64,000 nt of DNA from an uncultured bacterium (GTDB lineage: Bacteria > Patescibacteriota > Minisyncoccia > Phycocordibacterales > GWA1-40-21). The stretch is taken from NCBI GenBank assembly GCA_903831595.1, contig CAIKXY010000002.1, positions 28,339-92,338 of the forward strand. The letters are read 5' to 3'. The notes under the pieces were generated by a model. That model was not told the DNA's origin. It worked only from the letters and a program-made list of their open reading frames with translations, and ran no database searches. A program made the position numbers and the translations under genes. Of this stretch, positions 10,560 to 33,500 are shown in pieces. Every line of letters begins with the position of its first letter. Position 1 is the first letter of the stretch.

Positions 10560-10599
10560 TATTATATTCTATGTTATTAAATGGATAAGTTCAATCAAT

Positions 10600-12318
10600 A
10601 TGATAAAATATATACATATGAAAAACATCAACAACAATTTTGAATCTAATAAAGAACAGCCAAAAGAAATTGAGAAGAAATTCCTAATAGAATCTTCACC
10701 TGAAAATCTAAATACTTTTCCTCATAAGGAAATCATTCAGGGATATATTGCTATTACCGAAGATGGGACTGAGGTTCGTTTAAGGAAGAAAAAAGATAAA
10801 TATTATCAAACTGTAAAATCTGGGTCAGGAAAAATAAGAACAGAAAATGAGGTAGAAATAACGAAAGAGCAGTTTGATGTTTTATGGGGTGCAACAGTTG
10901 GTAAAAGAATTAATAAAACACGATATGAAATCCCAGATAAAGCAGGTGTAATTGAGCTTGATATATACCATGAAGATTTAAATGGGCTTAAGACTGCTGA
11001 GATTGAATTTAATTCTGAAGAGGCGAGTTTGGATTTTGTCCCCCCAGTTTGGTTTGGAAAAGAAGTTACAGAAAATAAGGCGTATAAAAATCAAAATCTT
11101 GCTCGAAATGGGATTCCCCAAGAATCAATCAAAGCAATTCCAGAATATGAATTGAATATTGGTGTTGAAAAACTTATTCAAGAAGTAGAACAAAAAGTAT
11201 TAGAAAATAAGAATGGAACAATCATTGTTGAAATAGCGGGCGGTTCAGCTTCTGGAAAAACAAGCGCAGTTTCAAAAAAATTAATGGAGGCGTTCAACGA
11301 CGAAGCAGTTTTGATATCGATGGACGACTACTACTACGGGCAAACTTTTATGGATCACAAAAAAAATGAAGGCAATGAATTAAACTGGGATCAGCCGGAA
11401 GCTTTAAATATACCAGAACTTAGAAAAAATCTTGAAGATTTGAAACAAGGAAAAACAATTCAAAAACCAAAATATGATTTTAAAACGGGTGAACCAATTG
11501 GATCTGAAGAAATAATGCCAAGAAAGGTAATTGTAATTGAGGGACTATTTGCGTTAAATGATGAAATTAAAACCGAAGGCGATGTAAAAGTATTTGTTGA
11601 TATTGGTACACACGGAAGAATTATAAGAAGACTTCTTCGTGATGTTGTCACAAGAGGAAAAAAACCTGAAGATATAATTAGTTATTTTTCTGGAGTTGTT
11701 GAACCAATGCATGAAAAATATATTCAAAATACAAAACAAAATGCAGACATGGTAATAAAAAATGAATACAAACCTGAAGTTGAGGCTGAACGATCTGGTC
11801 TACATGAGATCCAGTTAAAATTTAAAGCAGATATAGATTTAGAAAACCTGAGAAAACTTGGGGTAGATAAATTGGGACAGACAACTCAAATTGATCACTA
11901 TTATAATCCTAAAGATAGAAATTTAACTGACACAGATGAAATATTGAGAATTAGAGAAGAAGGAAGTGCGACTATTTTAACTTATAAAGGACCTCGAATT
12001 AAGTCACAGTATCGAGATAGGCCAAAATTTGAATTCAATATTGATAGTGAAACTAAAACAAAATTTTTATCTATTTATGGCAATGAGTCAAAAAGTATAA
12101 AAAAAGAAAGAATACTATACCAATTGGATAGCATAGTATTTTCAGTAGATAAAGTCAGTAAGCTTGAAGGAGATATTGAAAAGATAATTGGCACGTATGT
12201 CGAAGTCCGTTCTACGGACAAATCTATTGATGAGAAAAAATTGAATGAGACGTTATCAAAACTTGGTTTAAATATCAAAGATGGAATAAAAGAAACATAT
12301 TTTGAACTTGCAGAATAA
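10600..12318 (+). CDS. CYTH - uridine kinase (PRK family) - CYTH tri-domain protein
   Basis: N-terminal EIEKKFLIES...YEIPDKAGVIELDIYHEDLNGLKTAEIEF, a CYTH/triphosphate-tunnel fold. Middle domain IVEIAGGSASGKTS...VLISMDDYYYG...NWDQPEALNIPELRKNLEDLKQGKTIQKPKYDF, a uridine kinase P-loop with its motifs. The C-terminal EIQLKFKAD...YYNPKDRNLTDTDEILRIREEG...ILTYKG is a second CYTH. The start could be 10600 or 10618. Confidence 0.6.
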   Translation: MIKYIHMKNINNNFESNKEQPKEIEKKFLIESSPENLNTFPHKEIIQGYIAITEDGTEVRLRKKKDKYYQTVKSGSGKIRTENEVEITKEQFDVLWGATVGKRINKTRYEIPDKAGVIELDIYHEDLNGLKTAEIEFNSEEASLDFVPPVWFGKEVTENKAYKNQNLARNGIPQESIKAIPEYELNIGVEKLIQEVEQKVLENKNGTIIVEIAGGSASGKTSAVSKKLMEAFNDEAVLISMDDYYYGQTFMDHKKNEGNELNWDQPEALNIPELRKNLEDLKQGKTIQKPKYDFKTGEPIGSEEIMPRKVIVIEGLFALNDEIKTEGDVKVFVDIGTHGRIIRRLLRDVVTRGKKPEDIISYFSGVVEPMHEKYIQNTKQNADMVIKNEYKPEVEAERSGLHEIQLKFKADIDLENLRKLGVDKLGQTTQIDHYYNPKDRNLTDTDEILRIREEGSATILTYKGPRIKSQYRDRPKFEFNIDSETKTKFLSIYGNESKSIKKERILYQLDSIVFSVDKVSKLEGDIEKIIGTYVEVRSTDKSIDEKKLNETLSKLGLNIKDGIKETYFELAE

Positions 12319-12341
12319 TAAAATAGTTTTACACTGCAAAT

Positions 12342-16781: not shown

Positions 16782-16852
16782 ATGTGCAATTAGCAGTTTA
16801 AGCTAGATATGTTAAAAAGTAAAATATATTTGTCTAATATAAACCTTATAAA

Positions 16853-17626
16853 TTAAATATTACCATTTCCCAATAGTTCCCAAGTGCATAGGAAAAAAGA
16901 TTTAATCATTTGTACAATTGTTTTTGACTCTATAATCATAGAAATTGGATCTTTTTTATCAAGAGAAAACAACGCAATTTTATCTCCATAAATATATAAA
17001 GAACCCTGAAAGACAGACCCTTCCGGTAAAGTACGTACTTCTCTAAAAGCATCACTCTTAAAATACGAACCTAACTCTGATTTATCTGGGATAAGTATCA
17101 TTTTTGTGTAAATTTTATTTTGTTTTTTTATTTCATCTAATTTTGTAGGCAAATTTGGTGGGAGTAACTTACTTAATAAGGTATTAGTAAGCACATAAAT
17201 GTCTTTATATTTAGTCATTTCATTTTTATCAAACATTTCATCATATACTTTTTCAAGACTTCCATTTCCACGATATGTTCTTGTTGCAAAATTTGTTTCT
17301 TGGTTTTCGGCAAGATTTTTTATATCAGACAATATGGATTTGAAAATTTCACGTTTTTTATCCAATGATTTTTCGATTCGCATTGGATTTTCAGCCAAAA
17401 AATGTTTTTTGTTATTTATTGTATATGGGGAAATCAATTCTTTTTTTATTAGCCTTTCAATATATAGATAGACCGAGCTTCTAGGTATTGAAAGATTTTT
17501 TCCAACAGCAAAAGCAGTATTATCTTTCTTGTTGGAGCCAACTTTTGTAAGATAAAGATATATCTCAGCTTCTTGTCTATCAAGACCAAGTTCTATTAGA
17601 GATTCAATTGTTTTTGAGTTTTCCAT
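16853..17626 (-). CDS. TrmB-family transcriptional regulator (paralog 3)
   Basis: wHTH LIELGLDRQEAEIYLYLTKVGSNKK...SVYLYIERLIKKELI, and the same domain layout as the other two paralogs. Confidence 0.55.
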   Translation of the reverse strand: MENSKTIESLIELGLDRQEAEIYLYLTKVGSNKKDNTAFAVGKNLSIPRSSVYLYIERLIKKELISPYTINNKKHFLAENPMRIEKSLDKKREIFKSILSDIKNLAENQETNFATRTYRGNGSLEKVYDEMFDKNEMTKYKDIYVLTNTLLSKLLPPNLPTKLDEIKKQNKIYTKMILIPDKSELGSYFKSDAFREVRTLPEGSVFQGSLYIYGDKIALFSLDKKDPISMIIESKTIVQMIKSFFLCTWELLGNGNI

Positions 17627-17786
17627 AAAAAGTCATCATTTATGACTACTAATTCTAGCAATTATACATAAATAAATCAATGATAGAATTGTATATAGAT
17701 AATAACTGTCTAAAAAATATAGACAATATGTAATCTAAATGTTATTGTTTAGTTATTATTAATTTATTAATTAATTTATAAATATT

Positions 17787-18866
17787 ATGAAAAAAACATT
17801 TACTATCGCCGCCATCATATTTGTTGTCATTATTCTTGGTTTATATTTTGTAAACAAAAATCAAAAGAACATTACAAGTCAGCCCATCAAAATTGGTGTA
17901 ATACTTCCATTGACAGGCCCTGCTCAATCGGCTGGAGAGGCTGGTAGAAAGTCCGTTGAGCTTGCTATATCAAATCTTCCAGAAAACATTAGAAAAAATA
18001 TTCAAATAGTTTATGAGGATGATCAATCTGATACAAAACTTACAGTAACTGCAGCACAAAAACTAATTGAGGTTGATAAAGTTAAATCTTTAATTACGTA
18101 AAGTTCAGCTTCGTCTGTTGCGGCTTCGTATGTCGCTGAAAAAAGTTCTATTCCAATGATTGGACTTGGAAGTTCAGCAGATATTAATGCAAATAAACAG
18201 TGGGTAGTTCGATACGTACCAAGTTCATCATTGCTTATTAGTGCAATGGAAAAACAAATTCTTAACAGTAAGTATAAAAGAGTGGCAATAATTTGGAATC
18301 AAGCTGATGGCCCAAAAGCAAATGCTGAACAAACTGTTAAAACACTAACCGCTGCTGGTTATAATATTGTTGCGAATGAGTCAGTCGCTAAAGGAGAAAC
18401 TGATTTTAGAACATCAGTTACAAAAATAAAGTCCGCCAATCCTGAAGTGGTCATTGTTTTATTGTCTCCACAAGCTGGTGCATTCGCTAAACAGGTCCAA
18501 GATGTGGGCTGGAAAATACCTTTGGTCGGTATAATAAATTTTGAATCAACGGGACAAATTAAGATAGCCAACGGAGGATTAGATAATCAATTATATGTTG
18601 GAGATAAAAATGCTAATTTCCTTGATGAATATTACACCAAATACAACATGTACCCAGCAACCGCCGGAGACAATTTGTATGACGCCGTAATACAATTATC
18701 TAAAGCAAACATAGCAAGTAATGGGTCTAATTTGTCTGTGATGAAATATTTGAAGAAAGATTTCGTTGGAGTTTCTGGTGAATATAAATATTTGGGTGAT
18801 GGTTCCTACGACATTAGGCAGGTTGTCAAAACATGGAATGGCACTAAATTTATTGAGATAATATAG
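17787..18866 (+). pseudogene. Periplasmic substrate-binding protein (Leu/Ile/Val-binding, Peripla_BP_6-like) interrupted by an in-frame TAA
   Basis: ORFs 17787..18101 and 18156..18866 share a frame, and translation reads through the TAA at 18099-18101. The N-terminal part is IKIGVILPLTGPAQSAGEAGRKSVELAI, the typical start of a type-I binding protein. No ABC permease or ATPase genes are adjacent. Confidence 0.55.
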
Positions 18867-18867
18867 C

Positions 18868-18904
18868 TAGATTAAAAAACCACCAGCCTGCGGATGGTGG
18901 TTTT
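18868..18904. terminator. Bidirectional terminator hairpin
   Basis: AAAAACCACCAGCCTGCGGATGGTGGTTTTT. Confidence 0.45.
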
Positions 18905-20253: not shown

Positions 20254-21981
20254 ATGAAAAATTATTCAGTCAGAAATGAAATTTCAGAAAAAGCTAGTAA
20301 AGAATTGGCAAAATACCCAGAAATTTTACGTAAACTCCTATTCTATAGAGGAATTAAAAAAGAAAAAGACGCTATAGTATTTTTGAGCCCAGTCTTCGAA
20401 GACAATTATGATCCATATTTAATGAAAGATATGGATATTGCAGTTGAGAGAATACTAAAAGCCGTAGAAAAAAATGAAAAGGTAATCATTTATAGCGATT
20501 ATGATGCCGATGGAATACCAGGCGCTGTAATTTTGCATGATTTTTTTAAAAAAATAGGTTTCAAAAATTTTGAAAATTATATTCCACACCGAGTGCTTGA
20601 AGGTTTTGGTCTTAATGACGAAGCGATTGATGAATTTGCAAAAAATGGAGTTAATTTAATCATTACAGTTGATTGTGGCATTGCCGATGTTGAAGAAGCT
20701 GAAAAAATTAAGAAACACAAAATAGATTTGGTAATTACGGATCATCATTTACCAAGAATTTCTGAAAAAAATAAAGAGGAATTACCTCATGCACTCGCAA
20801 TATTAAATACAAGGCAATCAAAGTGTAAATATCCTGATAAAAATATTTGTGGAGCTGGCGTTGTATTCAAACTTGTGCAAGCACTCATAAAAAAGTCTGG
20901 GAAAAAGTTTGACATAGTAGATGGATGGGAAAAATGGCTTCTTGATATGGTGGCAATCGGGACAATTTCAGATATGGTTCCTTTAGTCGGTGAAAATAGA
21001 TTATTAGCACATTATGGTTTGAAAGTTTTGAGAAAATCTAGAAGACCTGGATTGCAAAGTCTTTTTTCTGTAACAAAAATTGACCAAAAAAATATTACAG
21101 AAGATGATATTGGCTTTATGATTTCTCCACGTATAAATGCAGCTTCAAGAATGGGTTTGCCTGAGGACGCATTTAATATGCTTGTGGCACAAAATGAAAT
21201 AGATGCTGTTAAATATGCACTTCATTTAAATAAAATAAACGATGATAGAAAAGTAATTGTAGCTCAAATGGTGAAAGAAATCCGCAAACACTGGGAAAAA
21301 TTTGACCCAGATAAAAAAAGAAAAGTTCTTGTCGCTGGAAATCCAGATTGGAAGCCATCACTTCTCGGACTTGTTGCAAACTCACTAATGGATGAACATG
21401 ATGGACCTGTATTTCTTTGGGGAAGAGAGGAAGGAAAAACTTTGAAAGGTTCTTGTCGTTCCGATGGATGTGTCGATATTGTCGCCATGATGCGAGAATC
21501 TGGAAATCTTTTAGAAGAATATGGTGGACACTCTGCTTCAGGGGGTTTTTCGATTAGTTTAGAAAAAGTTGATTTACTCGCCGATGGGCTTGAAGTCGCA
21601 TATCAAAAACTTTCTATTATTGGCAAAGAAAAAGAATTAATTGCTGATGTTGAAATAAAAATAGATGATGTAAATAATAATTTAGAAAGGCAAGTCAGCC
21701 AGCTTGCACCTTTTGGAATGGATAACCCCAAACCAATTTTTGCACTCCCAAATATTGAAATACATGATGTAAAGATTTTTGGAAAGAAAAATGACCACTT
21801 AAAAATCAATTTTAAAAATAGTAAAGGACAAATTATTTCTGCCATTGGATTTTTTATGAAGCCGACTGATTTTGATGCAAAAATAGAAAAAGGAGAAAAA
21901 ATAAATTTGCTTGCAAACTTGGAGAAAAGTTTCTTTGGCGGAAGGGAGGAAGTAAGGCTTAGAATCGTTGATTTGTCGTAA
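20254..21981 (+). CDS. recJ: Single-stranded-DNA-specific exonuclease RecJ
   Basis: DHH-family motifs DYDADGI and VITDHHLP, a DHHA1 region and a C-terminal OB-like domain. 575 aa. Confidence 0.8.
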   Translation: MKNYSVRNEISEKASKELAKYPEILRKLLFYRGIKKEKDAIVFLSPVFEDNYDPYLMKDMDIAVERILKAVEKNEKVIIYSDYDADGIPGAVILHDFFKKIGFKNFENYIPHRVLEGFGLNDEAIDEFAKNGVNLIITVDCGIADVEEAEKIKKHKIDLVITDHHLPRISEKNKEELPHALAILNTRQSKCKYPDKNICGAGVVFKLVQALIKKSGKKFDIVDGWEKWLLDMVAIGTISDMVPLVGENRLLAHYGLKVLRKSRRPGLQSLFSVTKIDQKNITEDDIGFMISPRINAASRMGLPEDAFNMLVAQNEIDAVKYALHLNKINDDRKVIVAQMVKEIRKHWEKFDPDKKRKVLVAGNPDWKPSLLGLVANSLMDEHDGPVFLWGREEGKTLKGSCRSDGCVDIVAMMRESGNLLEEYGGHSASGGFSISLEKVDLLADGLEVAYQKLSIIGKEKELIADVEIKIDDVNNNLERQVSQLAPFGMDNPKPIFALPNIEIHDVKIFGKKNDHLKINFKNSKGQIISAIGFFMKPTDFDAKIEKGEKINLLANLEKSFFGGREEVRLRIVDLS

Positions 21982-22025
21982 GCGCGCCTGTTTTTAAACA
22001 TAAGCTATTGTTGTATAATTAAATT

Positions 22026-25000
22026 ATGGAACAAGAATCTCAATTAGTTGATGCCGGTCTTAATGAGGAAATAAGCAAAGAAGCGATTAAAAGGCAAGAA
22101 GACGAAGCCAAATTTATTAGTGGTTATATAAAATCGACAGAAAATATTAATCAAGAAATTTCTAAATTAGAAATAACAATTAAAAGAATATTTGGTATTT
22201 TTTCTACTGAAATTAATAAAAATGACTATTTGCAATCGCTGCCTGATATAGAAAAAAGCCTAAAAGATTTACAATTGAATGGCAATAAAGATATTAATTA
22301 TTTTATCGAACAATCCCCAATAATATTATGTAGCCTTAAGAAACTAAAAGAATCAACTGAAATAAATTTAGAAGCTGACAATCAAACTAAAATAAATAAA
22401 GAAAAAATTAAAAAAATTGAAGAAGAGATTGCATCACTAAAAGAGTATAATTTTTTCAAAAAAATAGTAAGGTCAGCAGACTCAAAAATCAAAAAACTAG
22501 AATCTGATAAACAGCAGCTAGTTAGTATTAATAATGAAGCTTCAAGAATTAGTACAGAAAATGTTAAACTTAATAAAGAAATAGGCAAAACTTTGCTTGA
22601 AGTTGAAAAAACAATTTCAAATATCGCCCAAAATGAGATTACAGAAAAATTGGGCAAAGAAGTAAAAATGGCGATTAATAAGTCTTGGGAATTAATGCAA
22701 GACATAAATTCAAACGGTCTTAGCTTATCAATTGGTGAATCATATATAAAAAATATTGCCTTACCATCTATTAATGGTTCTGTGGACAAAAATCTTGAAA
22801 ATAAATTATTTACTGAGTATAAATTATATACAGAAAGCGGGTATGAGGAGTACACAAAACATAAAAATAATGTAATTGATCTAGCTGACGAATTAAAGAT
22901 AATAAGACCAAATGAGCTTTTTAATATTGACAACGATGCACTGGGGCTATTGTTTTCAATAGATGTCTCAGAAAAAATCTCTAATTTAAAAAATACATTT
23001 ATTAATCTACAACAAACATTAAGCAAAAGTAATGCTGTAAATAATAGTTTTATATTATCAGATAGAGACATAGAAAATAACTTTGGTCTAGAAATTCGTA
23101 CCTCAAGTCAATATAATCAAATTATTCTTGATATGGAGATGGAAAAACAACCACTCCTTAAAAAATTAGGCTATCATGAAATAAAAGATTGGCAGGCAGT
23201 AAAAAAATCCCAATTGGTTAATTCAATTTTTGGAGAAAAAGTTAAGCGTGTTGATGATGCAATATATAAATATCTAATTCCTCAAGTTACAACTAGTTTT
23301 GATGACTCTGCGTTAATATTTTCATTAAATTACTATAAAACACCAGAAGCTGTACGTGCAGCTTTATTATTGAGCATATCTAACAAGTATTATTGCTCGC
23401 GTGAAGCCAACTTTCTCATTAATAGTTTGTCAAAGGATAAAAAATGGTTAGAAGTTTTGGATAACACAGAAAAAAAATATCCATATTTAAAACCTTTACA
23501 TGAGATATTAGCCAAATGGAATGAGTCTGATTTTGATAGTAGCTCAATTTTTTCAAGAAATCCTAAAATTAATAATAATTTGCTACAAAATCTTGTTACT
23601 TCCATAGCTGAAAACGAGAATAATAAAAGTGAATTGGGTAAAAAAACAACAACGTTGGCCTTTAATTCTCTGGGAGCAGATCAAATGGTTCCGTTTTTAG
23701 AAAAAAACGATTTGATTTCAAAAGATGAAAAAGCAAAAATAGAAAGTCTTTTTGTATCATGGCCAGATAACCATAATTTGAAGATTAAATTAAAAGATTG
23801 TTTTTATGCAATGCTATGTAATAAATATGAGAATGAAGATACCAAAGATGAACATGAAAAAATGGATTTCTATTTAAAAATTTTTGATTCCTATAAGGAA
23901 AGTTTTTCTAAGTACAATAAATTTGATGAGGAAAAAATAATCACATCTTTTATTGATTTAGTAAATAAAAATAGATTAACAAAAGATAGGGTATTGGAAT
24001 TGGCTAATCCAATTAAAACGAAAAATGGTGTGGTAAATTTTATGAATCTTGAATCAAATGCAGGAGCTCTAGATGCACCTGAACTTTTTTTAGATAGTAA
24101 TGATGGTTTAGATATATTTACTCATTTAGAAAAAAAAGGAATCGATTCAATAGATCCAAGATTAGATGGTGTAATTGGAGACAAACTAATCCATAGTGAC
24201 ATAAAAGATTATTTAATAAAAGATACAATTAATTATGTTAATTCAAGATTTGTCAATAATAATTTAGATGGCAATTTAGAAATAACAAAAAATAATTGGA
24301 AATCATTATTACTAAATTATATTCAATCTAATAACTGGGATTTTAATTTGGCGACTGGGCCAGCAAAAGGATTACACGAAAAAATATATTATATTTTTTC
24401 TTTGGACGGCTCAAAAGATTTATGTCTTAATGAAATGAAAAAAACCTGGATTCAATACTTGAATAGTTCAGATAAAAATAAATTTCCCTTATCGTCAAGT
24501 ATTATTGCTCAATCTATTAAAAATAATGGTGGTGCTGGACCGCTTAGCCAAATTGCATCACTTGGTTTTTTCCAAGATAATTATTCACTGGTTATTGCCA
24601 GTGAGCAAATTACAGAAAAAACAAAGAATCAACTTTTTGATGGTATGAAAATGATGGAGGAGAAATTTATTAAAGAAAAATGGTCGAACGAGGACACCAC
24701 AAATTTCTATAATATATCCAGAGACATTTTATCTGTTGCACCGAGCTTATTCTCAACATACCTTGAGGTTTTTGTGAAGCTTAAACAAAAAGATACCAAG
24801 ACATTCTTGCAAGATATATTCCCATTACACAGGGCAGTACTTTCGCTTATAGAAAAAAAAGATGGAGATGGACACAGAACATTTGCTAAGAGGGGGTTGG
24901 CTGGGATAAGAAAAAATTTTGTAAGATCAATTTTGGATGAGTCTGGATCTATTAAGCCATTCTCTGAACAAAAAAAAGAGCTCACTGATTTTATATTGGA

Positions 25001-26633
25001 AAATTTTAAAAATAAATTTGGAATAATTAAAGTTAAGGAAAATTTTACTCCAGAACACCTTCGTTCGACGAGTAATATTTCAATGTATTGGTCAAATTTT
25101 AATCGTAAGAGTGATACATATTTTGAAAAAGTAATGAGTGTTTATTTAGCCCTAATGATTAATGATAAGTGGGATGATTATAAAAAAGGAGAAAAAATAA
25201 ATTTTGAAGAATTATTGACTCAAGAAAGAGCATCTTTTGCTAATAATCTAAGTAAGGATAAATTAGAAATGAATCCAATTATACAGCAAAATTTAGGTAT
25301 AAATGAAAAGGATTTGCCAGAGTTTTATAATATTTTAAGTTCAGAAGTGGGAAATATAGTAATTGGAAACGTTGAAACAATAGATAACAAGCTAAATAAT
25401 GTTATTTTAAATTTAGATAGTCTTAAAGATTTGGATTTATATCCACCAGATTCATTAGATAGGCAAAGAATGAAAATACTATTGGATTATGGAAGCAAAA
25501 AAATTGGTGAAGTAGTTGCAAAAACTTATCAATCACTAATAAAGACGAAAGGGGACATCAAATTCTCGGCGGACGAACAAAGTATCAAAAATGAAATAGA
25601 ATCTATATTAAAGATTAACAATTTAGAAATAAACACAGCAAATATTAAGAAAGTATTTCAAGAAGAGATGAGACCATTTTCTACTGTCATTAATATGTTT
25701 AGTTTTGTGGAAGAGATTGGAGTTAAAAACGACATATCAGAACTCAGAGAATTATTGAAACCTTCATCAGAAATAATCTCTATTTTTAATAAATTAGGTG
25801 AAGAATTTAAACAGACATCTGGTGCTATGGCCCTATCCCAGGATTTGGGATATTTGGAAAGTGTAATTAGTAAAAATGAAGATAAAATATCTAGTGAAGA
25901 AAATTCGTCAGTAAAAAAATACTTAGATGAGATAAATAAAAAATTAACAAAACTTGAAGATAACTATAAAAAGATTATTGATAAATTTAAAAATGTAAAG
26001 CAAGGGCATGGAGTTGTCGAAAACAAGTCATTAAAAGATAGACTTAATAATATAGACAAAATTATTAACTTGCCAGATGATCAGGTTGTAGTAACGAGCG
26101 GCATAACGTCAAATTTAAATTATATTATAGAAAATATAAGAAATTGTTTATCTTGTGTGACTAATGGTGTTAATAATGATACCAATTTGACCTTTGGCGA
26201 TCAAAACAAGTTTTATTTGTATAGCAAAACCAATCAAGGGCCAAAATCAATCTCAGATCAAATTTTGTTTCTTGAGCCAGTAAAATATGATGGTGTATCT
26301 GAAATGTCTTTTGTTTTTGATAAAGTATATGGTACAAAAACCCCAACGATTTTATTGAACCAAATTGAAGTTGTAATAAAAAAATATAAAGAAATTAAAA
26401 AGAAATTTCCGGATTCAAGACTTTCTTTATTCGTTACTAATGCAGCCTTAGAATCTTCTGGTTTATCTGTCGAATCTCTTAAGCGCGATCTACCAAATAT
26501 GAAGTGTGGGACAAAAACTATTAATATAAACGTTTTAAAATCCCCAGTGGCTGATCACTATATTGAAATTGGTAGCGGAAGTAGTAGGTCATCTGGTGGT
26601 GAGATGGTTGTTAACGGAGTGTTATTAAAATAG
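22026..26633 (+). CDS. Giant hypothetical protein (1535 aa), coiled-coil-rich and Lys/Asn-rich, with no signal peptide
   Basis: Uninterrupted ORF. The N-terminal 250 aa have strong heptad-like patterns. No recognisable catalytic motifs. It is flanked by a duplicated recJ 3' end; see findings. Confidence 0.55.
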   Translation: MEQESQLVDAGLNEEISKEAIKRQEDEAKFISGYIKSTENINQEISKLEITIKRIFGIFSTEINKNDYLQSLPDIEKSLKDLQLNGNKDINYFIEQSPIILCSLKKLKESTEINLEADNQTKINKEKIKKIEEEIASLKEYNFFKKIVRSADSKIKKLESDKQQLVSINNEASRISTENVKLNKEIGKTLLEVEKTISNIAQNEITEKLGKEVKMAINKSWELMQDINSNGLSLSIGESYIKNIALPSINGSVDKNLENKLFTEYKLYTESGYEEYTKHKNNVIDLADELKIIRPNELFNIDNDALGLLFSIDVSEKISNLKNTFINLQQTLSKSNAVNNSFILSDRDIENNFGLEIRTSSQYNQIILDMEMEKQPLLKKLGYHEIKDWQAVKKSQLVNSIFGEKVKRVDDAIYKYLIPQVTTSFDDSALIFSLNYYKTPEAVRAALLLSISNKYYCSREANFLINSLSKDKKWLEVLDNTEKKYPYLKPLHEILAKWNESDFDSSSIFSRNPKINNNLLQNLVTSIAENENNKSELGKKTTTLAFNSLGADQMVPFLEKNDLISKDEKAKIESLFVSWPDNHNLKIKLKDCFYAMLCNKYENEDTKDEHEKMDFYLKIFDSYKESFSKYNKFDEEKIITSFIDLVNKNRLTKDRVLELANPIKTKNGVVNFMNLESNAGALDAPELFLDSNDGLDIFTHLEKKGIDSIDPRLDGVIGDKLIHSDIKDYLIKDTINYVNSRFVNNNLDGNLEITKNNWKSLLLNYIQSNNWDFNLATGPAKGLHEKIYYIFSLDGSKDLCLNEMKKTWIQYLNSSDKNKFPLSSSIIAQSIKNNGGAGPLSQIASLGFFQDNYSLVIASEQITEKTKNQLFDGMKMMEEKFIKEKWSNEDTTNFYNISRDILSVAPSLFSTYLEVFVKLKQKDTKTFLQDIFPLHRAVLSLIEKKDGDGHRTFAKRGLAGIRKNFVRSILDESGSIKPFSEQKKELTDFILENFKNKFGIIKVKENFTPEHLRSTSNISMYWSNFNRKSDTYFEKVMSVYLALMINDKWDDYKKGEKINFEELLTQERASFANNLSKDKLEMNPIIQQNLGINEKDLPEFYNILSSEVGNIVIGNVETIDNKLNNVILNLDSLKDLDLYPPDSLDRQRMKILLDYGSKKIGEVVAKTYQSLIKTKGDIKFSADEQSIKNEIESILKINNLEINTANIKKVFQEEMRPFSTVINMFSFVEEIGVKNDISELRELLKPSSEIISIFNKLGEEFKQTSGAMALSQDLGYLESVISKNEDKISSEENSSVKKYLDEINKKLTKLEDNYKKIIDKFKNVKQGHGVVENKSLKDRLNNIDKIINLPDDQVVVTSGITSNLNYIIENIRNCLSCVTNGVNNDTNLTFGDQNKFYLYSKTNQGPKSISDQILFLEPVKYDGVSEMSFVFDKVYGTKTPTILLNQIEVVIKKYKEIKKKFPDSRLSLFVTNAALESSGLSVESLKRDLPNMKCGTKTININVLKSPVADHYIEIGSGSSRSSGGEMVVNGVLLK

Positions 26634-26727
26634 GAAAAGGAGAAAGAATTAATTTTCTTGTGAACTTAGAAAAAAGTTTTTTGGTTTAAGGGAAGAGTTG
26701 AGATTAAGAATTATAGATATAGTTTAA
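26634..26727 (+). repeat. Decayed duplicate of the recJ 3' terminus (gene-end remnant)
   Basis: About 70% nt identity by eye to 21886-21981. One frame reads ...ELRKKFFGLREELRLRIIDIV*, against NLEKSFFGGREEVRLRIVDLS* in recJ. Confidence 0.5.
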
Positions 26728-26867
26728 ATTTTGCTAATCTAAAATCATTAATCCACATATCAGCAAAGGCTGATATTGCTGGAGGAAATTTTTTTGTAAT
26801 ATATAACTTTTTTACTTGCGAATTGAGCAATTTTAGGGTAAATTAATGCTTGTTTGGGAAAAAACAC

Positions 26868-26965
26868 GGAGAGGTGTCAGAGTGGGATAAAAGTGAACTG
26901 CTTTACTTTTATCCACAAACGAAGTTTGGGCGGCAACCAATCTGACACTATTCCGAAGGACGACA
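26868..26965 (+). other. Structured element that begins with an exact 18-nt copy of the tRNA-Ser 5' end (a tRNA-fragment-derived element)
   Basis: GGAGAGGTGTCAGAGTGG is identical to 26992-27009. It is followed by nested stems: GTGGGATAAAAG pairs with CTTTTATCCAC, and GTGTCAGA pairs with TCTGACAC. It does not fold as a tRNA. Confidence 0.3.
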
Positions 26966-26991
26966 AATTTGAGTGACAACGAAATATATTT

Positions 26992-27078
26992 GGAGAGGTG
27001 TCAGAGTGGTTGAATGAACCGGTCTTGAAAACCGGAAGGCCGGAAACGGTCTCGCGAGTTCGAATCTCGCCCTCTCCG
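26992..27078 (+). tRNA. tRNA-Ser (anticodon TGA)
   Basis: Acceptor GGAGAGG/CCTCTCC, 3-bp D-stem, anticodon loop CTTGAAA, long variable arm, T-arm GCGAG-TTCGAAT-CTCGC, discriminator G. Confidence 0.7.
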
Positions 27079-27084
27079 CATAAC

Positions 27085-27118
27085 AAAAAGCGCCGCGGAT
27101 TACCGCGGCGCTTTTATT
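27085..27118. terminator. Terminator after tRNA-Ser
   Basis: AAGCGCCGCGG, loop ATTA, CCGCGGCGCTT, then TTATT. Confidence 0.55.
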
Positions 27119-27552: not shown

Positions 27553-30500
27553 ATGAATTTAAGAAACATCAAAATAAATCTATCGAATATCTTTAGAAAA
27601 AATATTGGAGAAAGAGTAAAAGTGTGGATAAAAAATCCAATATTCTCCGTTGTAATTGTGGCACTACTTTTTTTTGTAATGGCCGCAGTTTTTATTTTAC
27701 CCAGTTATTCTATTCATAAAGATAATGTAATTAAAAATCTTTCCATTACCCAACTCCCATCTACTCCTGGCCAACCAATAAAATGGATAAAGAAAATTGC
27801 TGTAAATCAAATTAATGAAGACACACATTTGGTGGAGATTCCAAAAATTGCAACAAAAGTTTCAATTTCTACTTCAACAATAAAAAATATCTCCCCAGTA
27901 AAAACCTCTAAACTTACAAACGCAGATAGAAAGAAGCTTTCAGCATTAGCTGCACAAAGAGTAAATTCTACTTCCACACTTCAACTTGCAGAAAAAATAA
28001 AACAACAAAAAATTGAATCAACTAAAAAATTAACTTTTTTTCAAAAAATATTCCGTGCCATTAGAAATTCAATTTCAAATATGTTTGCTACCGTTGAGGA
28101 CGCAGTGGCACCTGCACCTGAGACAACCATTATAGATGTTGCTCCAGTAGTTTCTCTGACACAAGATCAAACACAAACACCAGTATCAACAGATAATTCT
28201 TCAACTCCAATAGCAGATAATTCATCCACAACAACTTCTCCTGATAATTCTATACCAGTACAATCTACATCAACAGATAGCTCTCAATCCACATCCACAG
28301 CTCCCGCTACTCCAGAGATTTCAACAACAAGCGCATCAACAACACAAGATCAATCAGTTTCAACATCATCCACATCAGCTTCAGCACAAAGTACTTCCGC
28401 ATCTACTACATCAACAAGTTCTGACCAATCAATAGCCACTTCTACTGGAACATCCACAGCACTTGTAAATGCATCATCCACAGCATCAACGACGGTAGAT
28501 GTTATATACGAAACTCCAGCACCAACTATCACCGAAGCAAATACTGACACTGGAAAAATTGTCACCATTTCTGCTACGGATACTTCTGACACACCAATAA
28601 CAAACGTCTTAGCTTATGCAAACATCCCAAAAATATATAAAGTAGGCCAAGAAGATAAGATAAAAATAAAATGGGTGAACAACGGCGACCAAAATGTTGT
28701 TTTTAAGGCATATGACTTAAACAAAGATGGATGGCTCGACTACGTAGAATGGACAGTTCCACACCTTTCAACACAAACATTTGAAATTATTTTCATATCA
28801 AAAGCTTTCCAGCTTGATACAGACCAAAGTATTCTCGCAGATATTTATGATTCAGTAAAAACAAAAGATGGGAACTACGCGACAATCAGCGACGGACAAT
28901 ATGTCAGAACAACTTTCAATCAAATTTTGACCAAAGGAAATGACATCACTATTTATGCAAAGCCAACAAACACAAGTGGCTCGGCAAGTATTGAAGTTTA
29001 TCCCGTCTATGTTGACGCAGAAGGTAATCAAACAGAAGGAGACAAGCTTACACTAGTAAATGATGATGTTAATTCAAATTTCGATAATATCAATCACACT
29101 GGCAAATACAGAATTTTGCTAAAAAATCTCGTCACCCCAACAAACATTTTTGACCTAAAAGTCACTGGAAACATAGATATAGATTATATTGTTGACCCTG
29201 TCCCGACACCTTTTATCTCAACATGGGATACAAGAAATACTTCCTCTGGTTCAAGTGCAGACAATCAAATACATATTCCTCTCATAGATCCAGGCCGATT
29301 TGGTAATAATAATACTGATACACAATATGGTTTTACAGTTGATTGGGGAGATGGGAACACCGATACTATTACATCATTCGATGACCCAAATACCACACAC
29401 ACATATTCAACAGCTGGTGTTTATACACTTACGATAACTGGTACGCTTGTCGGTTGGAGTTTTGCGCTGGCCCCTATAAATGATAGTAAAAAAATTATTG
29501 AAATAAGTCAGTGGGGTTCTCTAGTTTTGCTTAATACACTCAATGACAATGATTTTATAAATGGTTGGGCTTCTTATTATTACATAGGCTATTTTGCAGG
29601 GACATCAAATTTAAGCATTACTGCAACTGATACACTCAATACTGCTAGTACAACAGAAATGATGAGCGCTTTTGATGGAAGTGGTATTAGCACTGTTCCC
29701 TCTATGAATAGTTGGGATATGTCAAATGTTAGAAGTATGAACAGTATGTTTGCAAATACTCCAAATTTTAATCAACCTATTGGAAATTGGAAAACCTCAA
29801 ATGTATGGATAATGAAAGATATGTTTGCAAATGCCACGGCGTTTAATCAACCAATTGGGAATTGGGATGTAGGTTCACTTCAAATGGATTCATGCCAAGG
29901 AATGTTTAGAAATGCAACATCTTTTAATCAACCACTAAATGGTTGGCATTTTAGGGCGCCCAATGATTTTAGGTGGATGTTTTCTGGTGCGACTTCATTT
30001 GACCAAAATATTAGTACATTTGATTTTACTAATTTGGGCGGGATTTATTTAGCAGGTATGTTTGATGGAGTTACGCTTTCTACAACAACTTATGATGCCA
30101 TATTGATGGGATGGGGAAATCCAGAACATAACGCAGGTAATTGGCCAACGGGAGTCACTTTTTCCGCTGGCAGTTCCACTTACGACTATTCTGCATCTTT
30201 AGCAAGACAACATCTTGTAAATACTTTGGGTTGGACAATTACTGACGGTGGTCCATCTTGGCCTGCATCAGACGCAACATTACTTATTGCAGCTACAACT
30301 ACAGCTCAGGGTCTAATAGATGCAAATGCACCAGAGTCGACGGATATTCCAGGCAATCATTTACCAGGTTCTCTCGCTACACTTCAAACTGCGCTTGGTG
30401 CAGTATATGCGGATATTAGCTATCCACAAAGCGTCGTCGATGAACAAACTCTTGCACTAAATACTGCCATTGATACTTACAATACATCCCTTGTTTTACC

Positions 30501-33500
30501 ATCAAATGTTGATGCACTAAACAGTGCGAGAAATGACGCTTCTACAATTCTTCTTAATTACTGTAATGATGATTATCGACCTGGTTGTTATCCTGGTTGG
30601 CTTTTTTCTACTCTCAACGGTGTCGTAGAACAATATTCCGCTGTAGATAATACTTACACCCAAGGTGCTGTTGACTGGGCGGCTGGTGCTATACGAGGTG
30701 CAATTGATACTTTTTCTTGGTCACAAATACAACCATCTTATACTGGAAATCTTGAAGGTGCTAGATCACGGGCCCAGGGTACCCTAAATAATTGTAGTAG
30801 TTATGATCAACCAACCTGTTATCCCCCAAGCTCTTTTGAAAGCCTTAGTAGTACTCTGAATTCTTACTCTAGTGTTGATAGCAATTCGCCGCAAGGAGAT
30901 GTTGATAGTGCAACCAATGTAATAAATGATGCATGTAATTCTTTTGATGCCACACAAATACCGCTATCTTACACTGGAAATCTTGACTCTAATCGTCAGT
31001 GGGCTCAATGGATGTGTTGGGACGGCTGTGGTAGTTCCGGACAACATTATTGTTCAGACCGTGATGCTATATGTAGTGCTGCGGGTTCATATTGGGCAGG
31101 TCCCTATGACCCACAAGGTTATGTTGAGAGTATGGCACAACAGATTCAGGCTGCCATAGACACTTATAATTCCTCTCCTTTAATTCCCTACGCTGATACG
31201 TCTGGACTCGATTTTGCTAAAAGTCAAGCTCAAGATTTAATAAATCAAAATGCTCCAGAATCGAGTACACCCGGTGACCATATAGTTGGCTCACTTCAGA
31301 TACTTTCCGGCATTTTATGGTCAAATTATTGGCCTGATATTAACTATCAAAGCAGTGTTGACGCAGCAACAGCGGCAATTAATGATGCGATATCAGCTTA
31401 TTATGCAGCAATCGTGCCATCATCAGATGTTACTGACCTGAACTTTGCTATAAGTGTGGCTCAAACTTTTATTACAGAAAACGCACCAGAGTCTTACACC
31501 CTAGGTAATCATATGCCCGGCTCACTCAGTGCACTTTCTTTGGTCCTTGCATCTGCTACCTCAACGGTAAATGATCCTCAATCTGTTGTCTACACACAAA
31601 CATCTGACTTAAATAATGCTATTAAAATATACAACGCATCTGTAATCAGTGCGTTTATGCCAGATGCATCAAGCGATATAGAATTATCACAGCAGGCTGT
31701 AATTTCAAACAGCATAACAAATCTTTCTGGTATCCTTACACAAAATCAAAGTGTCCATAATCTTATTTTAGGTACGGGTGGATATTTGGATTTGGCTGGT
31801 CACACGTTGACTATATCGGGTACATACACAAATAATGGTGGAACACTTACTGATAGTGTTGGTGGAGGAGCAATGAACATTTCAGGTGCGCATTGGTGGG
31901 AGTATTCAAACGCATCAGAAGTAATAAATGGTGCGACAATAAATTATTTGCCAAATAGCGATGATGTAAACAGCGATGTTTCAATAGGTAGTGATGTTAA
32001 TACAAAGTTATTATTGCATATGGATGGTACAAATGGTTCAAATAATTTTGTTGATAGCGAATTAACCCCTAAAACTGTTACCGCAAATGGCAGTGCACAA
32101 ATAAGTACGACGCTATCAAAATTTGGGGCAAGCGGACAATTTAATGGTTCAACGGATTATTTAACTATTCCGGCAAGTAATGATTTTAATTTTGGAACCG
32201 GAGATTTTACTATTGACGGATGGTTCTATTTTAATAGTCTTGGTACACAAATAATAGCAAGTGATTACAATGCAAATAATGAATGGGGAGATGCTGGTTG
32301 GGCAATGTTTATTGAGTGGGGGCAATTCTCTTTTCTTTCAGCCTCCAGTCATGGGTGGGATAATTGGTCCGTTTATCATTCATCTTTTGTTCCACAAATT
32401 CACACGTGGACACATCTAGCAGTTGTAAGGCATGGAAATGTCTTTACTCTTTATGCAAATGGGCAAAGTGTTATGTCCGGGACATATAATGATGGAACTG
32501 GCAATTATTCTGGGCAACTGGTAATTGGAGCAAGATCCAATGGGAGTGCTTCATTTGATGGTTATATGGATGAATTAAGAATTTCAAAAGGGGTTGCCCG
32601 TTGGACAGATAATTTTACACCATCTAGCTCACCATATGGTTCTGATACAAAAAATATTTCTCTATTTAGAGATTCATATATCAGGAATATTGCCATAAAT
32701 GCAGGCAGTACATTAAATTTGGCTGGTCACTCATTAACTATTTCAGGTACATATACAAATTCTGGAGGAACTCTTACTGATAGTGTTGGTGGTGGTTCAA
32801 TTGATTATGCAGGACCATGGTGGATGCCTATTAATGTTGGCGGAAGTGGTATCACTGTAAATTATTCGGCAAATAGTAGTGAAGTCATCAGTGATTTAGT
32901 TCTAAGTACAAGCACCAGGCTTTATAGAGATGCATATATTCATAATCTTACTTTAGCGACCGGTGGAACTTTAGATTTGAATGGTCACACACTAAATATT
33001 TCTGGACATTGGTGGAATTTTAATAACACAGGTGGAACATTAATTAAAAATGGTGGAACAATAAATTATATATCCAAAATTCCTTATCCTTTAGATACTG
33101 TAAGCGATGCAACAATTGATACATCGATTACTCTTGATAGAGACCAAAGTGTAAACAATCTCACCCTTGCAAGCGGTGGAACTTTAGATTTAAATGGTCA
33201 TACATTAAACGTTTCAGGTAATTGGACAAATTCAGGCGGAACACTTATAAACCATGGTGGCACAGTTAATCTTACTGGAACAAACCAAAGTATTTTGGGT
33301 ACAAACACATTTGCAAATTTAGTTAAACAAACACCTGTTAGTGATTCATTATATTTTGATGGAACTGCATCAACCACTATTACTGACAGTATATCTTTAA
33401 ACGGAAGTTTGGGGAATTTGTTAACAATAAAACCAATAAGTGGAATTAGCAACGGCCTAATCTTGTCCCTCCCTTTTAATTCTCCAAATCCGACAGTCGA

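What the first reader, a model, noticed from the sequence alone, without database searches (positions are those of the whole stretch)
21886..26727. A single 1535-aa ORF is inserted into the 3' end of recJ, with a decayed duplicate of the recJ tail on its far side
The last roughly 96 nt of recJ (21886-21981, encoding ...EKGEKINLLANLEKSFFGGREEVRLRIVDLS*) recur in degenerate form at 26634-26727, directly after the stop of the 22026-26633 ORF. One frame of the remnant reads ...ELRKKFFGLREELRLRIIDIV*, and nt identity is roughly 70% by eye. An intact gene end plus a displaced, decaying copy downstream is the classic footprint of an integrative element that targets a gene 3' end and brings a replacement end with it. 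Here the cargo is just one gene: a coiled-coil-rich, Lys/Asn-rich protein with no signal peptide, no TM helix and no domain I can name. tRNA-Ser lies just downstream, and its own 5'-fragment duplication suggests the locus is an integration hotspot. A single-gene, gene-3'-end-targeting insertion of a giant cytoplasmic protein is unusual, and the protein is a good candidate for an undescribed function such as a defence, toxin or host-interaction factor.
Basis: partly seen in the sequence, partly recalled or inferred. Interest (0 to 1): 0.8.

Follow-up and report, generated by a model that had tools for sequence, protein, structure and literature searches.

The report
Giant gene inserted into recJ's tail
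A 4.7-kb stretch holding one giant gene sits between recJ and tRNA-Ser in a Patescibacteria (CPR) genome, flanked by two versions of the last ~100 bases of recJ. The insertion footprint is real, but the gene is not an orphan: it belongs to a large, uncharacterised CPR protein family whose C-terminal domain looks like a distant GNAT acyltransferase.

Summary
The last 102 nt of recJ (21880-21981) recur at 26627-26727, right after the 1535-aa ORF. The local alignment scores 75, against at most 33 in shuffles.

The two closest relatives (recJ 86% nt identity) and at least 10 more distant ones have recJ followed within 0.07-0.9 kb by tRNA-Ser, with no giant ORF. One other lineage (giant protein 71% identical) has the same filled layout. 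The remnant keeps the clade-consensus C-terminus. The working recJ tail is a mosaic, native-like on the left and foreign-like on the right, and the two copies differ mostly at synonymous sites. They are therefore two functional recJ ends from diverged lineages joined by recombination, not a duplicate that decayed.

- The insert carries no recombinase.
- GC3 matches the rest of the genome.
- The insertion looks old: giant-gene dS 0.74 against recJ dS 0.75.
- The tRNA-Ser 5' fragment is part of a conserved structured unit, not a fresh scar.

The cargo belongs to a family of at least 281 clusters of 1200-2800-aa cytoplasmic proteins. They lie at different chromosomal sites and have a helical body plus a distant GNAT-like C-terminal domain. 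Interest is moderate.

The parts
20254..21981 (+). recJ (575 aa), intact. It is the target gene of the insertion.
   Evidence: Pfam DHH, DHHA1 and RecJ_OB. It is 90-91% aa identical to recJ of L013/L084 and L085.
21880..21981 (+). Left copy of the repeat: the working recJ tail (last 33 codons plus stop). It is a mosaic. About 21880-21945 is native-like and about 21946-21981 is foreign-like and ends ...RIVDLS*.
   Evidence: Against the empty-site relative L013 there are 8 differences in the left 66 nt and 11 in the right 36 nt (Fisher p=0.03). The equivalent copy in L001 against L085 gives 1/66 and 10/36 (p=1e-4). The C-terminus departs from the clade consensus.
21982..22025 (+). Spacer brought in with the insert. 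It holds a TATAAT box (22014-22019) 6 nt upstream of the giant ORF's ATG, conserved in the second carrier. Promoter function is inferred.
   Evidence: TTGTTGTATAATT(A/G)AATTATGG is conserved between the window and L001, while the rest of the spacer is not. The generic promoter scan was uninformative.
22026..26633 (+). Giant ORF, 1535 aa, cytoplasmic. It is the sole cargo and a member of a large uncharacterised Patescibacteria family.
   Evidence: It is 71% identical to P0002. dN/dS is 0.23 overall and 0.08 in the last 335 aa. HMMER finds 281 clusters at E<=1e-3. There are no significant Pfam, NCBIfam, PADLOC, PHROGs or PDB-sequence matches. No TM helix.
24258..26069 (+). Conserved helical region of the giant protein, aa 745 to about 1348.
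26070..26630 (+). C-terminal alpha/beta domain, aa ~1349-1535, with a GNAT-like fold. Invariant residues form R-x-C-L..C, NNDT, K-F, S..D, F..D..Y-G, K, S, Y-x-E.
26627..26727 (+). Right copy of the repeat: the displaced native recJ tail. It is a pseudogene with a 1-nt deletion between 26676 and 26677 and ends ...RIIDIV*.
   Evidence: The last 12 nt are identical to the L013 tail, read from the codon alignment printed. The C-terminus fits the clade consensus. L013 and L085 recJ tails also align here in blastn.
26728..26867 (+). Native spacer between recJ and tRNA-Ser. It holds a possible remnant of a Cas2-like gene's 3' end (~26760-26800) and the tRNA-Ser promoter-like TTGCGA(26816-26821)-17 nt-TAAATT(26839-26844).
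   Evidence: The TTGCGA...TAAAT motif recurs upstream of tRNA-Ser in L013, L001, L005, L007 and L088. The resemblance to the 3' end of the L001 Cas2-like gene was seen by eye and is weak.
26868..26991 (+). Exact copy of the first 18 nt of tRNA-Ser (26868-26885) plus 106 nt. Together they form a conserved structured unit upstream of tRNA-Ser.
   Evidence: It is 83% identical to L094 12455-12577(-). The consensus fold has 29 pairs, 2 with compensatory double changes and none broken. Only these two copies turned up in 2.5 Mb of loci. No Rfam match.
26992..27079 (+). tRNA-Ser (UGA), the conserved right-hand neighbour of recJ across the clade.
   Evidence: ARAGORN and Rfam. recJ and tRNA-Ser are adjacent in relatives.
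27086..27115 (+). Terminator-like hairpin after tRNA-Ser. It is the first terminator-like site downstream of the giant ORF's stop; one weak + strand site lies inside the ORF at 24561-24576.
   Evidence: The same hairpin follows tRNA-Ser in L013.

Best explanation
This is a recombination-made, single-gene insertion at the 3' end of recJ, not a self-mobile element.

How it arose. DNA from a related Patescibacterium carried the end of a recJ gene, a short promoter-bearing spacer and the giant gene. It recombined with the resident recJ inside the last ~100 bp. The most likely route is a single reciprocal crossover of a circularised fragment (Campbell-type), done by the host's general recombination system or by a recombinase acting in trans. 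The result is: recJ body, then a mosaic tail (native left two-thirds, incoming right third), then the giant gene, then the displaced native tail, then tRNA-Ser.

When it arose. The event probably predates the split of the two known carrier lineages. The non-carriers nested among them would then have lost the insert again by recombination between the two ~100-bp direct repeats, and the copies have since been partly homogenised by gene conversion.

What the cargo is. It is a real gene under purifying selection, for a cytoplasmic protein of a large Patescibacteria-wide family. The protein has a long helical scaffold ending in a distant GNAT-like (acyl-CoA N-acyltransferase fold) domain. I infer that it is a scaffolded acyltransferase with an unknown substrate.

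Shown: the footprint, the empty sites, the mosaic tail, purifying selection, the family and the fold resemblance.
Inferred: the circular intermediate, the enzyme that did the crossover, the age and loss history, and the catalytic activity.
For: Footprint and its limits:
- The repeat is far above chance.
- Relatives L013 and L085 are collinear with the window on both sides, and their single recJ tail aligns to both copies.
- Among 163 loci centred on recJ homologues, only the window and L001-L003 carry the giant ORF.

Two functional tails, not decay of one:
- Between the window's two copies pS=0.74 and pN=0.17.

Crossover inside the tail:
- The working tails are mosaics: 1/66 against 10/36 differences (p=1e-4) and 8/66 against 11/36 (p=0.03).
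- Both carriers share the CTT Leu codon in the right part, where the remnants and empty-site relatives have TTA or TTG.

The remnant is the native tail:
- It keeps the consensus C-terminus and the downstream flank TAAATTTTG.

No element machinery:
- The 4.7-kb insert holds only one credible gene.
- The nearest recombinase gene found is a serine recombinase 31 kb away.

Age:
- Giant-gene dS between the window and L001 is 0.74. recJ dS between the window and L013 is 0.75, and recJ-fragment pS between the window and L001 is 0.48.
- GC3 is native.

Loss by repeat recombination is plausible:
- The L085 tail equals the left part of L001's working copy (1/66). Its right part is closer to L001's remnant (5/36) than to L001's working copy (10/36).

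Protein:
- D-[RKQ]-x-Y-G sits at the beta4-alpha3 junction, where GNATs carry the Q/R-x-x-G-x-G/A motif.
Against: - No circular form, excision junction or donor genome with recJ next to the giant gene and no remnant was found.
- The remnants are uniformly diverged from the empty-site tails (5/48 against 5/36, and 15/65 against 7/36). A donor origin for their left parts, which the Campbell model predicts, is therefore not shown.
- The two remnants are more alike (19/83 differences) than the pS of 0.47 at synonymous sites predicts (p=5e-6). In L001 the two copies differ little at synonymous sites (pS 0.13). An ancient single event therefore needs later gene conversion, or the events are younger or repeated.
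- The grouping of the window outside L001+L013+L085 rests on 135 nt for L001.
Confidence: 0.55

Rival explanations
1. It is a true site-specific mini-island. The cassette (recJ-tail attP plus the giant gene) is integrated and excised by a tyrosine or serine recombinase encoded elsewhere, acting in trans. It targets the recJ 3' end each time, so the window and L001 could be independent hits.
For: The footprint is the classic one: target gene kept intact, displaced 3' end, empty sites. The junctions in the two carriers are the same apart from small indels. Carriers and non-carriers are interleaved. In L001 the two tail copies differ little at synonymous sites (pS 0.13), as after a recent event. 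A large serine recombinase gene lies in the window at 57554-58894.
Against: The insert has no recombinase. The serine recombinase is 31 kb away and unlinked. Family members elsewhere show no flanking duplications and no recJ-tail-like sequence. Phage, plasmid and viral collections give no hits. Giant-gene dS equals host-gene dS. No circular form was seen, and the L001-L003 contigs have no terminal overlap.
Confidence: 0.2
2. It arose by homology-facilitated illegitimate recombination of linear donor DNA taken up from a relative in which the giant gene already followed recJ. A homologous crossover occurred in the recJ tail, and an illegitimate join linked the end of the giant gene to the recipient's recJ about 100 nt before its stop. 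In this case the remnant is wholly native.
For: The remnants are uniformly diverged from the empty-site tails, with no left/right contrast. The working tails are mosaics. The right junction lies in an A-rich microhomology (AAAATAG), and the giant protein ends at the family's normal C-terminus. The window encodes a PilM-type pilus assembly protein, which hints at DNA uptake.
Against: This topology uses the recipient's first 66 nt of the tail twice, so it needs two chromosome copies or an extra step. No donor arrangement was found among 163 recJ loci. As far as I know, reported events of this kind usually delete recipient DNA rather than duplicate it.
Confidence: 0.12
3. The giant gene is an old core gene at this site, and the second recJ tail is a local tandem duplication that is decaying.
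For: GC3 is native, the gene is under purifying selection, and the family is mostly embedded among housekeeping or ordinary metabolic genes elsewhere.
Against: The closest relatives and all more distant ones examined lack the gene at this site. The two copies differ mainly at synonymous sites (pS 0.74, pN 0.17), which decay of a duplicate would not produce. The working tail is a mosaic.
Confidence: 0.03
4. It is an assembly artefact: two strains' recJ ends were joined in one contig.
For: The L001-L003 contigs break at similar points, and their right ends lie in a 141-nt stretch identical to L013. That shows strain mixtures in those samples.
Against: The same layout is recovered in the window (116-kb contig) and, for the second lineage, in contigs from four samples (three with DNA held). 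The junction sequences are consistent and a 4.6-kb ORF lies uninterrupted between the copies.
Confidence: 0.02

Closest known systems
Integrative elements that insert into the 3' end of a gene and bring a substitute end. The example I have in mind is the e14 element and phage 21 in the icd gene of E. coli, with its displaced icd' remnant. This is from my own knowledge and was not checked here.
   Same: The target gene stays intact. The displaced native 3' end lies at the far side of the insert. The substitute end differs mostly at synonymous sites. Relatives have empty sites.
   Different: The insert has no integrase or excisionase. The cargo is a single 4.6-kb gene. No phage or plasmid genes are present, no excised form is known, and the insertion looks ancient and vertically inherited.
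Campbell-type insertion-duplication by a single homologous crossover, and merodiploids formed during natural transformation (PMC3784515, title and abstract as listed).
   Same: Direct repeats of the homologous segment flank the incoming DNA. No dedicated recombinase is needed. The insert can be lost by recombination between the repeats.
   Different: Neither the circular intermediate nor the donor has been observed. The homology is short (~100 bp) and only ~75-85% identical.
GNAT (Gcn5-related N-acetyltransferase / acyl-CoA N-acyltransferase) superfamily
Genomic islands that target tRNA genes and leave partial tRNA copies
   Same: An exact 18-nt copy of the tRNA-Ser 5' end lies 124 nt upstream of the gene, in a spacer that holds different small cassettes in different relatives.
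   Different: The copy is of the 5' end, not the 3' end. Only 106 nt separate it from the gene. The whole unit is conserved, with compensatory pair changes, in a distant relative. It looks like a structured leader rather than an att scar.

Membership tests
Site-specific integrative element (integrase-mediated, targets a gene's 3' end) | Recombinase (tyrosine or serine integrase) encoded within the element | tested here: not met
   The only credible gene between the repeats is the giant ORF, which has no Pfam, NCBIfam or PHROGs recombinase match. The nearest recombinase gene found is 31 kb away.
Site-specific integrative element (integrase-mediated, targets a gene's 3' end) | Direct repeats at both ends made of the target gene's 3' end, with the target gene kept intact | tested here: met
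   21880-21981 against 26627-26727. recJ is full length with a complete RecJ_OB domain.
Site-specific integrative element (integrase-mediated, targets a gene's 3' end) | Empty target site in close relatives | tested here: met
   L013/L084 and L085, plus more distant relatives including L004, L005, L007-L010, L015 and L016, have recJ followed by tRNA-Ser with no giant ORF.
Site-specific integrative element (integrase-mediated, targets a gene's 3' end) | Evidence of mobility: an excised circle, or independent insertions at the same site in separate lineages | tested here: inconclusive
   There are two carrier lineages with non-carriers nested among them. The gene's dS equals the host's, and loss by repeat recombination explains the pattern equally well. 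No terminal overlap in the L001-L003 contigs. Reads were not available.
GNAT acyltransferase superfamily (C-terminal domain only) | GNAT fold topology | tested here: met
GNAT acyltransferase superfamily (C-terminal domain only) | Motif A, Q/R-x-x-G-x-G/A, in the beta4-alpha3 loop (binds the CoA pyrophosphate) | tested here: inconclusive
   D-[RKQ]-[IVL]-Y-G is conserved at the end of beta4. The final G/A position varies.
GNAT acyltransferase superfamily (C-terminal domain only) | Sequence match to a curated GNAT family | tested here: not met
   No Acetyltransf family appears among the 25 listed Pfam families matched at E<=0.1 (41 in all) by 30 family members, nor in NCBIfam. The PDB profile search found nothing.
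GNAT acyltransferase superfamily (C-terminal domain only) | Acyl-CoA-dependent transferase activity | not testable with these tools
   Needs biochemistry.
Known anti-phage defence systems | Match to a PADLOC-DB model | tested here: not met
   Zero PADLOC families at E<=1. The gene is stand-alone, and no partner gene recurs across the eight family contexts looked at.

The most novel reading that the evidence does not exclude
The giant-protein gene may be a recombinase-less, single-gene cassette that moves around and between Patescibacteria genomes. It would do so by capturing the 3' end of whatever gene precedes it and re-entering by a crossover in that end. On this reading, the family's scattered, always-solitary positions inside otherwise conserved housekeeping gene strings (rpsO|pnp, greA|aspS, folD|rpsB, recJ|tRNA-Ser) record repeated moves, and the recJ locus is the one case where the footprint is still visible. 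The protein itself would be a lineage-specific scaffolded acyltransferase that matters for the CPR lifestyle.
Probability: 0.12. Interest if true: 0.75.

Novelty: new variant of a known kind. Interest (0 to 1): 0.45.

Why it matters
- It is a clean, datable example of how a reduced, episymbiont-type CPR genome gains a very large gene without any visible mobile-element machinery. It also shows that such an insert can be lost again through its own flanking repeats.
- It shows that a 1500-aa "orphan" is in fact a member of a large, unannotated Patescibacteria family of at least 281 clusters at 50% identity.
- That family now has a confident structural model and a testable lead: a distant GNAT-like catalytic domain with a distinctive set of invariant residues. 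Families of this size with no annotation are good targets for working out CPR biology.
- The footprint itself is a known kind of thing.

Tried and rejected
1. The word-index homologue search made the protein look like an orphan. It returned 2 hits, and a second search with the C-terminus did not even return the query itself. The full HMMER scan overturned this.
2. Sequence annotation gave nothing significant for the protein or for family members: Pfam, NCBIfam, PADLOC, PHROGs, and PDB by sequence and by profile.
3. A mobile-element origin found no support. There are no relatives in IMG/VR viral contigs, INPHARED phages or PLSDB plasmids.
4. A general mechanism was tested and not found:
   - The six other family loci tested have no flanking duplications.
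   - They have no recJ-tail-like sequence nearby.
   - Two other window-specific insertions, 10598-12338 and 16827-18901, have none either.
5. The ~5.6-kb L001-L003 contigs are not circular: no terminal overlap. Their right ends lie in a 141-nt stretch identical to L013, which fits assembly breaks caused by strain mixtures.
6. Composition gives no sign of foreign origin. The low GC is in codon positions 1 and 2 (Lys/Asn-rich protein), while GC3 is normal.
7. The 22-nt exact match between recJ 21887-21908 and the giant ORF at 25183-25204 is specific to the window. The second carrier differs there, so I treat it as chance in A-rich coding sequence.
8. Reading the remnant as a C-terminal extension of the giant protein fails. 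It is in frame after TAA in L001, but out of frame and frameshifted in the window.
9. A NUDIX fusion suggested by P0155 is a gene fragment at a contig end.
10. The afdb50 structure library was not available.
11. A covariance model of the tRNA-Ser leader found only the two copies it was built from.
12. The literature searches turned up no description of this family or of this recJ insertion.

Full report

Yes.

- recJ (20254-21981, +, 575 aa) has DHH, DHHA1 and RecJ_OB domains. The OB domain reaches residue 573, so the tail is a structural part of the protein.
- Its last 102 nt (21880-21981) recur at 26627-26727. The second copy starts 7 nt before the end of the 1535-aa ORF 22026-26633.
- Identity is 84% over the first 56 nt and 74 of 101 aligned positions overall, with a 1-nt deletion between 26676 and 26677.
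- The local alignment scores 75. The next-best place in the window scores 45, and 200 shuffles gave at most 33.
- The ORF is Lys/Asn-rich, with no hydrophobic N-terminus and no TM-grade segment.

**2. Where the window comes from, and the ancestral gene order**

- recJ's relatives are MAGs of Patescibacteria, labelled Paceibacterota or Parcubacteria.
- In the relatives scanned for tRNAs (12 loci), the order is tRNA-Arg(gcg) ... recJ, then a spacer, then tRNA-Ser(uga). The spacer is 0.07-0.9 kb where tRNA-Ser lies on the same strand as recJ; in L006, L012 and L094 the tRNA gene is inverted and lies 0.6-1.5 kb away. tpiA precedes recJ in the window.
- Among 163 loci centred on recJ homologues from genome and metagenome collections, only the window ("W") and three contigs of one other lineage ("R", L001-L003) contain the giant ORF. 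This holds by tblastn and by a family HMM against all six-frame ORFs.
- W's closest relatives are L013/L084 ("E") and L085 ("F"). Their recJ is 90-91% aa and 86% nt identical to W's. Both are collinear with W on both sides, and their single recJ tail aligns both to 21880-21972 and to 26627-26727.
- The insert is therefore delimited to about 4.75 kb.

**3. The second carrier**

- R's giant protein (P0002, 1538 aa) is 71% identical to W's.
- The contigs, from four samples, are laid out as follows (three have DNA held): recJ tail, a spacer with the same TATAAT...ATG motif, the giant ORF, a recJ-tail remnant, a Cas2-like gene, then tRNA-Ser.
- R's remnant lacks 18 nt at its start. The missing stretch lies between two AAAAATA repeats, which fits a slippage deletion.
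- R's remnant is otherwise an intact reading frame.
- The junctions in W and R are the same apart from these small indels.

**4. Which copy is native?**

- The clade's recJ ends ...RLRIVDI[V/I/F]*.
- The remnants end RIIDIV* (W) and RIVDII* (R) and share the downstream flank TAAATTTTG.
- The working tails end RIVDLS* (W) and RIVKIL* (R).
- The working tails are mosaics.

| Comparison | Differences, left 66 nt | Differences, right 36 nt | Fisher p |
|---|---|---|---|
| R working tail vs F | 1/66 | 10/36 | 1e-4 |
| W working tail vs E | 8/66 | 11/36 | 0.03 |

- Both working tails carry a CTT Leu codon where the remnants and the empty-site relatives have TTA or TTG.
- In W the two copies differ at pS=0.74 but pN=0.17. 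Decay of a duplicate cannot produce that pattern. It means that two functional recJ ends, diverged in different lineages, were brought together.
- A crossover therefore took place inside the last ~100 bp of recJ, and the incoming DNA carried at least the end of a recJ gene.
- The remnants are uniformly diverged from the E and F tails. I cannot show that their left parts come from the donor, as a reciprocal (Campbell) crossover predicts. A one-sided illegitimate join stays possible.

**5. Age and history**

- Giant-gene dS between W and R is 0.74 (pS 0.47). recJ dS between W and E is 0.75. The 45-codon recJ fragment available for R gives pS 0.48 against W. The cargo has therefore diverged as much as the host gene.
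- GC3 of the cargo is 0.21, within the genome's usual 0.19-0.26.
- On the limited data, W lies outside a group made of R, E and F. Non-carriers are thus nested among carriers.
- The simplest history is one old insertion, later lost in E and F by recombination between the ~100-bp repeats.
- F's tail fits this. It equals the left part of R's working copy (1/66), and its right part is closer to R's remnant (5/36) than to R's working copy (10/36).
- Two observations complicate that history:
  - The two remnants are more alike (19/83 differences) than synonymous sites would predict (p=5e-6).
  - R's two copies differ little at synonymous sites (pS 0.13).
- Either gene conversion has kept the copies similar, or the cassette has been re-acquired or exchanged among lineages.
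- A 141-nt stretch covering the tRNA-Ser promoter and gene is 100% identical between R and E, next to DNA that is 50-70% identical. That fits recent exchange of this segment between the two lineages.

**6. Is it an integrative element?**

- The footprint is the one such elements leave.
- However, the insert encodes nothing but the giant protein.
- The nearest recombinase gene found is a large serine recombinase 31 kb away, at 57554-58894.
- No relative of the protein occurs in viral contigs, phages or plasmids.
- I therefore prefer a recombination-made insertion that needs no element-encoded enzyme. A trans-mobilised mini-island is the main rival.

**7. What is the cargo?**

*Not an orphan.* A full HMMER search with residues 346-1535 of W and R found 281 clusters (50% identity) at E<=1e-3 and 209 at E<=1e-30. 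The proteins are mostly 1200-2800 aa and share the C-terminal ~790 residues. Some hits are labelled Saccharimonadales and Levybacteria.

*Genomic context.* Eight members looked up (one of them, P0155, a fragment truncated at a contig end) are solitary chromosomal genes at different sites. For most, the immediate neighbours are housekeeping or ordinary metabolic genes:
- greA|X|aspS
- rpsO|X|pnp
- folD|X|rpsB
- SWIB|X|glyoxalase
- a pyridoxamine-oxidase-like gene (next to a copper-resistance cluster)|X|an AAA-type ATPase gene, with groES and groEL beyond
- hypothetical genes|X|a hypothetical gene followed by copper-resistance genes
- cysteine synthase|X (split into two ORFs)|gpmA
- P0155, the fragment, near glycosyltransferase and asparagine synthase genes.

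The six loci tested have no flanking duplication and no recJ-like sequence nearby.

*Selection.* dN/dS is 0.23 overall and 0.08 in the last 335 residues.

*Structure.*
- An AlphaFold2 model of residues 745-1535 is confident: pLDDT 82.7, pTM 0.68. It shows about 600 helical residues followed by an alpha/beta domain.
- Foldseek agrees in kind but weakly: best E=0.01, TM<=0.5.

*Conserved residues.* The family's invariant residues cluster in this domain: R-x-C-L..C, NNDT, K-F, S..D, F..D..Y-G, K, S, Y-x-E. [RKQ]-x-Y-G sits where GNATs carry the start of their CoA-binding motif (the motif itself is from my own knowledge).

*Limits.* No Pfam GNAT family matches. The most I can say is [quoted passage not shown]. 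PADLOC gives no support for a defence role.

**8. The tRNA-Ser fragment**

- 26868-26885 is an exact copy of the first 18 nt of tRNA-Ser.
- Together with the next 106 nt it forms a unit that is 83% identical in L094, a relative whose recJ is only 70% identical. There too it lies directly upstream of tRNA-Ser, even though the tRNA gene is inverted relative to recJ in that genome.
- The consensus fold has 29 pairs. Two show compensatory double changes, four show one-sided compatible changes, and none is broken.
- The tRNA promoter-like motif lies upstream of the fragment.
- This looks like a conserved structured leader, or at least an old unit that travels with this tRNA-Ser allele. It does not look like a fresh integration scar.
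- Only two copies were found, and there is no Rfam match.
- The spacer between recJ and tRNA-Ser is nevertheless variable:
  - a Cas2-like gene between two copies of a palindrome in E and R;
  - an HNH-like ORF in F, L100 and L004;
  - no room for a cassette in L005, L007 and L015, where the spacer is only 69-107 nt.

**9. Verdict**

- The labels "integrative element", "unnameable orphan" and "integration-hotspot scar" are not supported as stated.
- The footprint is a recombinase-less, single-gene variant of a known kind.
- The protein family is uncharacterised and large, and it now has a structural lead.
- Interest is moderate.

Noticed in passing
window 26868-26991 (and L094 12455-12577, minus strand): A ~124-nt unit upstream of tRNA-Ser begins with an exact copy of the tRNA's first 18 nt. 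It folds into a 14-bp outer stem plus a 13-bp hairpin. It is 83% conserved in a distant relative, with 2 compensatory pair changes and no broken pair among 29. There is no Rfam match. It may be a structured tRNA leader or a new small RNA.
   Followed up: partly
L013 8596-9070; L001 5010-5500; L085 11760-12254; L100 and L004: The spacer between recJ and tRNA-Ser holds alternative small cassettes. One is a Cas2-family 125-aa gene (TIGR01573, 31 bits) with no CRISPR array seen nearby. It is bracketed by two copies of a palindrome that differs between genomes but is the same on both sides within a genome (CTCCACCATGGTGGAG or TACGCCATGGCGTA). The other is an HNH-like ORF (Pfam HNH, 21.1 bits, just under the cutoff) whose 3' end overlaps tRNA-Ser.
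   Followed up: partly
window 26992-27079 compared with L013, L001, L085, L015, L010 and L094: The tRNA-Ser(UGA) alleles do not follow the recJ tree. The window's allele matches distant L015 (96.6%) and L010 and resembles L094's, while close relatives L013 and L001 share a different acceptor stem and L085 has a third. L001 and L013 are 100% identical over 141 nt of promoter plus tRNA, next to DNA that is 50-70% identical. This suggests the tRNA segment is exchanged between lineages.
   Followed up: partly
window 57554-58894 (-): A large serine recombinase (Resolvase + Recombinase + Zn_ribbon_recom, 446 aa) lies about 1.6 kb from tRNA-His (55837-55908). It may mark another integrated element. 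No link to the recJ insert was found.
   Followed up: no
window 10598-12338 and 16827-18901: Two further segments are absent from the collinear relatives L013 and L085. One holds a 614-aa PRK/uridine-kinase + CYTH protein. The other, next to tRNA-Arg(gcg), holds a TrmB-like ORF and a periplasmic-binding-protein gene split into two ORFs (17787-18101 and 18156-18866). Neither segment has flanking repeats.
   Followed up: partly
window 21887-21908 and 25183-25204: A 22-nt exact match (AAAAAGGAGAAAAAATAAATTT) links the recJ tail and the inside of the giant ORF (KKGEKINF). The second carrier differs at this spot, so it is probably chance in A-rich coding sequence. It is unexpectedly long for chance, though.
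   Followed up: partly
window 27553-35544 and 36158-40660 (+): Two more giant ORFs (2663 and 1500 aa) lie just downstream. The first has an N-terminal hydrophobic segment and Ser/Thr-rich repeats, seen by eye. The second has a Laminin_G_3 (concanavalin-like) domain. They are probably surface proteins and are unrelated to the recJ-site protein.
   Followed up: no
L169 8001-16397; L171 6001-10521; L164 8001-12950: Other members of the giant-protein family sit inside otherwise conserved housekeeping strings: between rpsO and pnp, between folD and rpsB, and between greA and aspS. They lie in the same orientation as their neighbours with short spacers, as if inserted singly there too. No flanking duplications were detectable.
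   Followed up: partly
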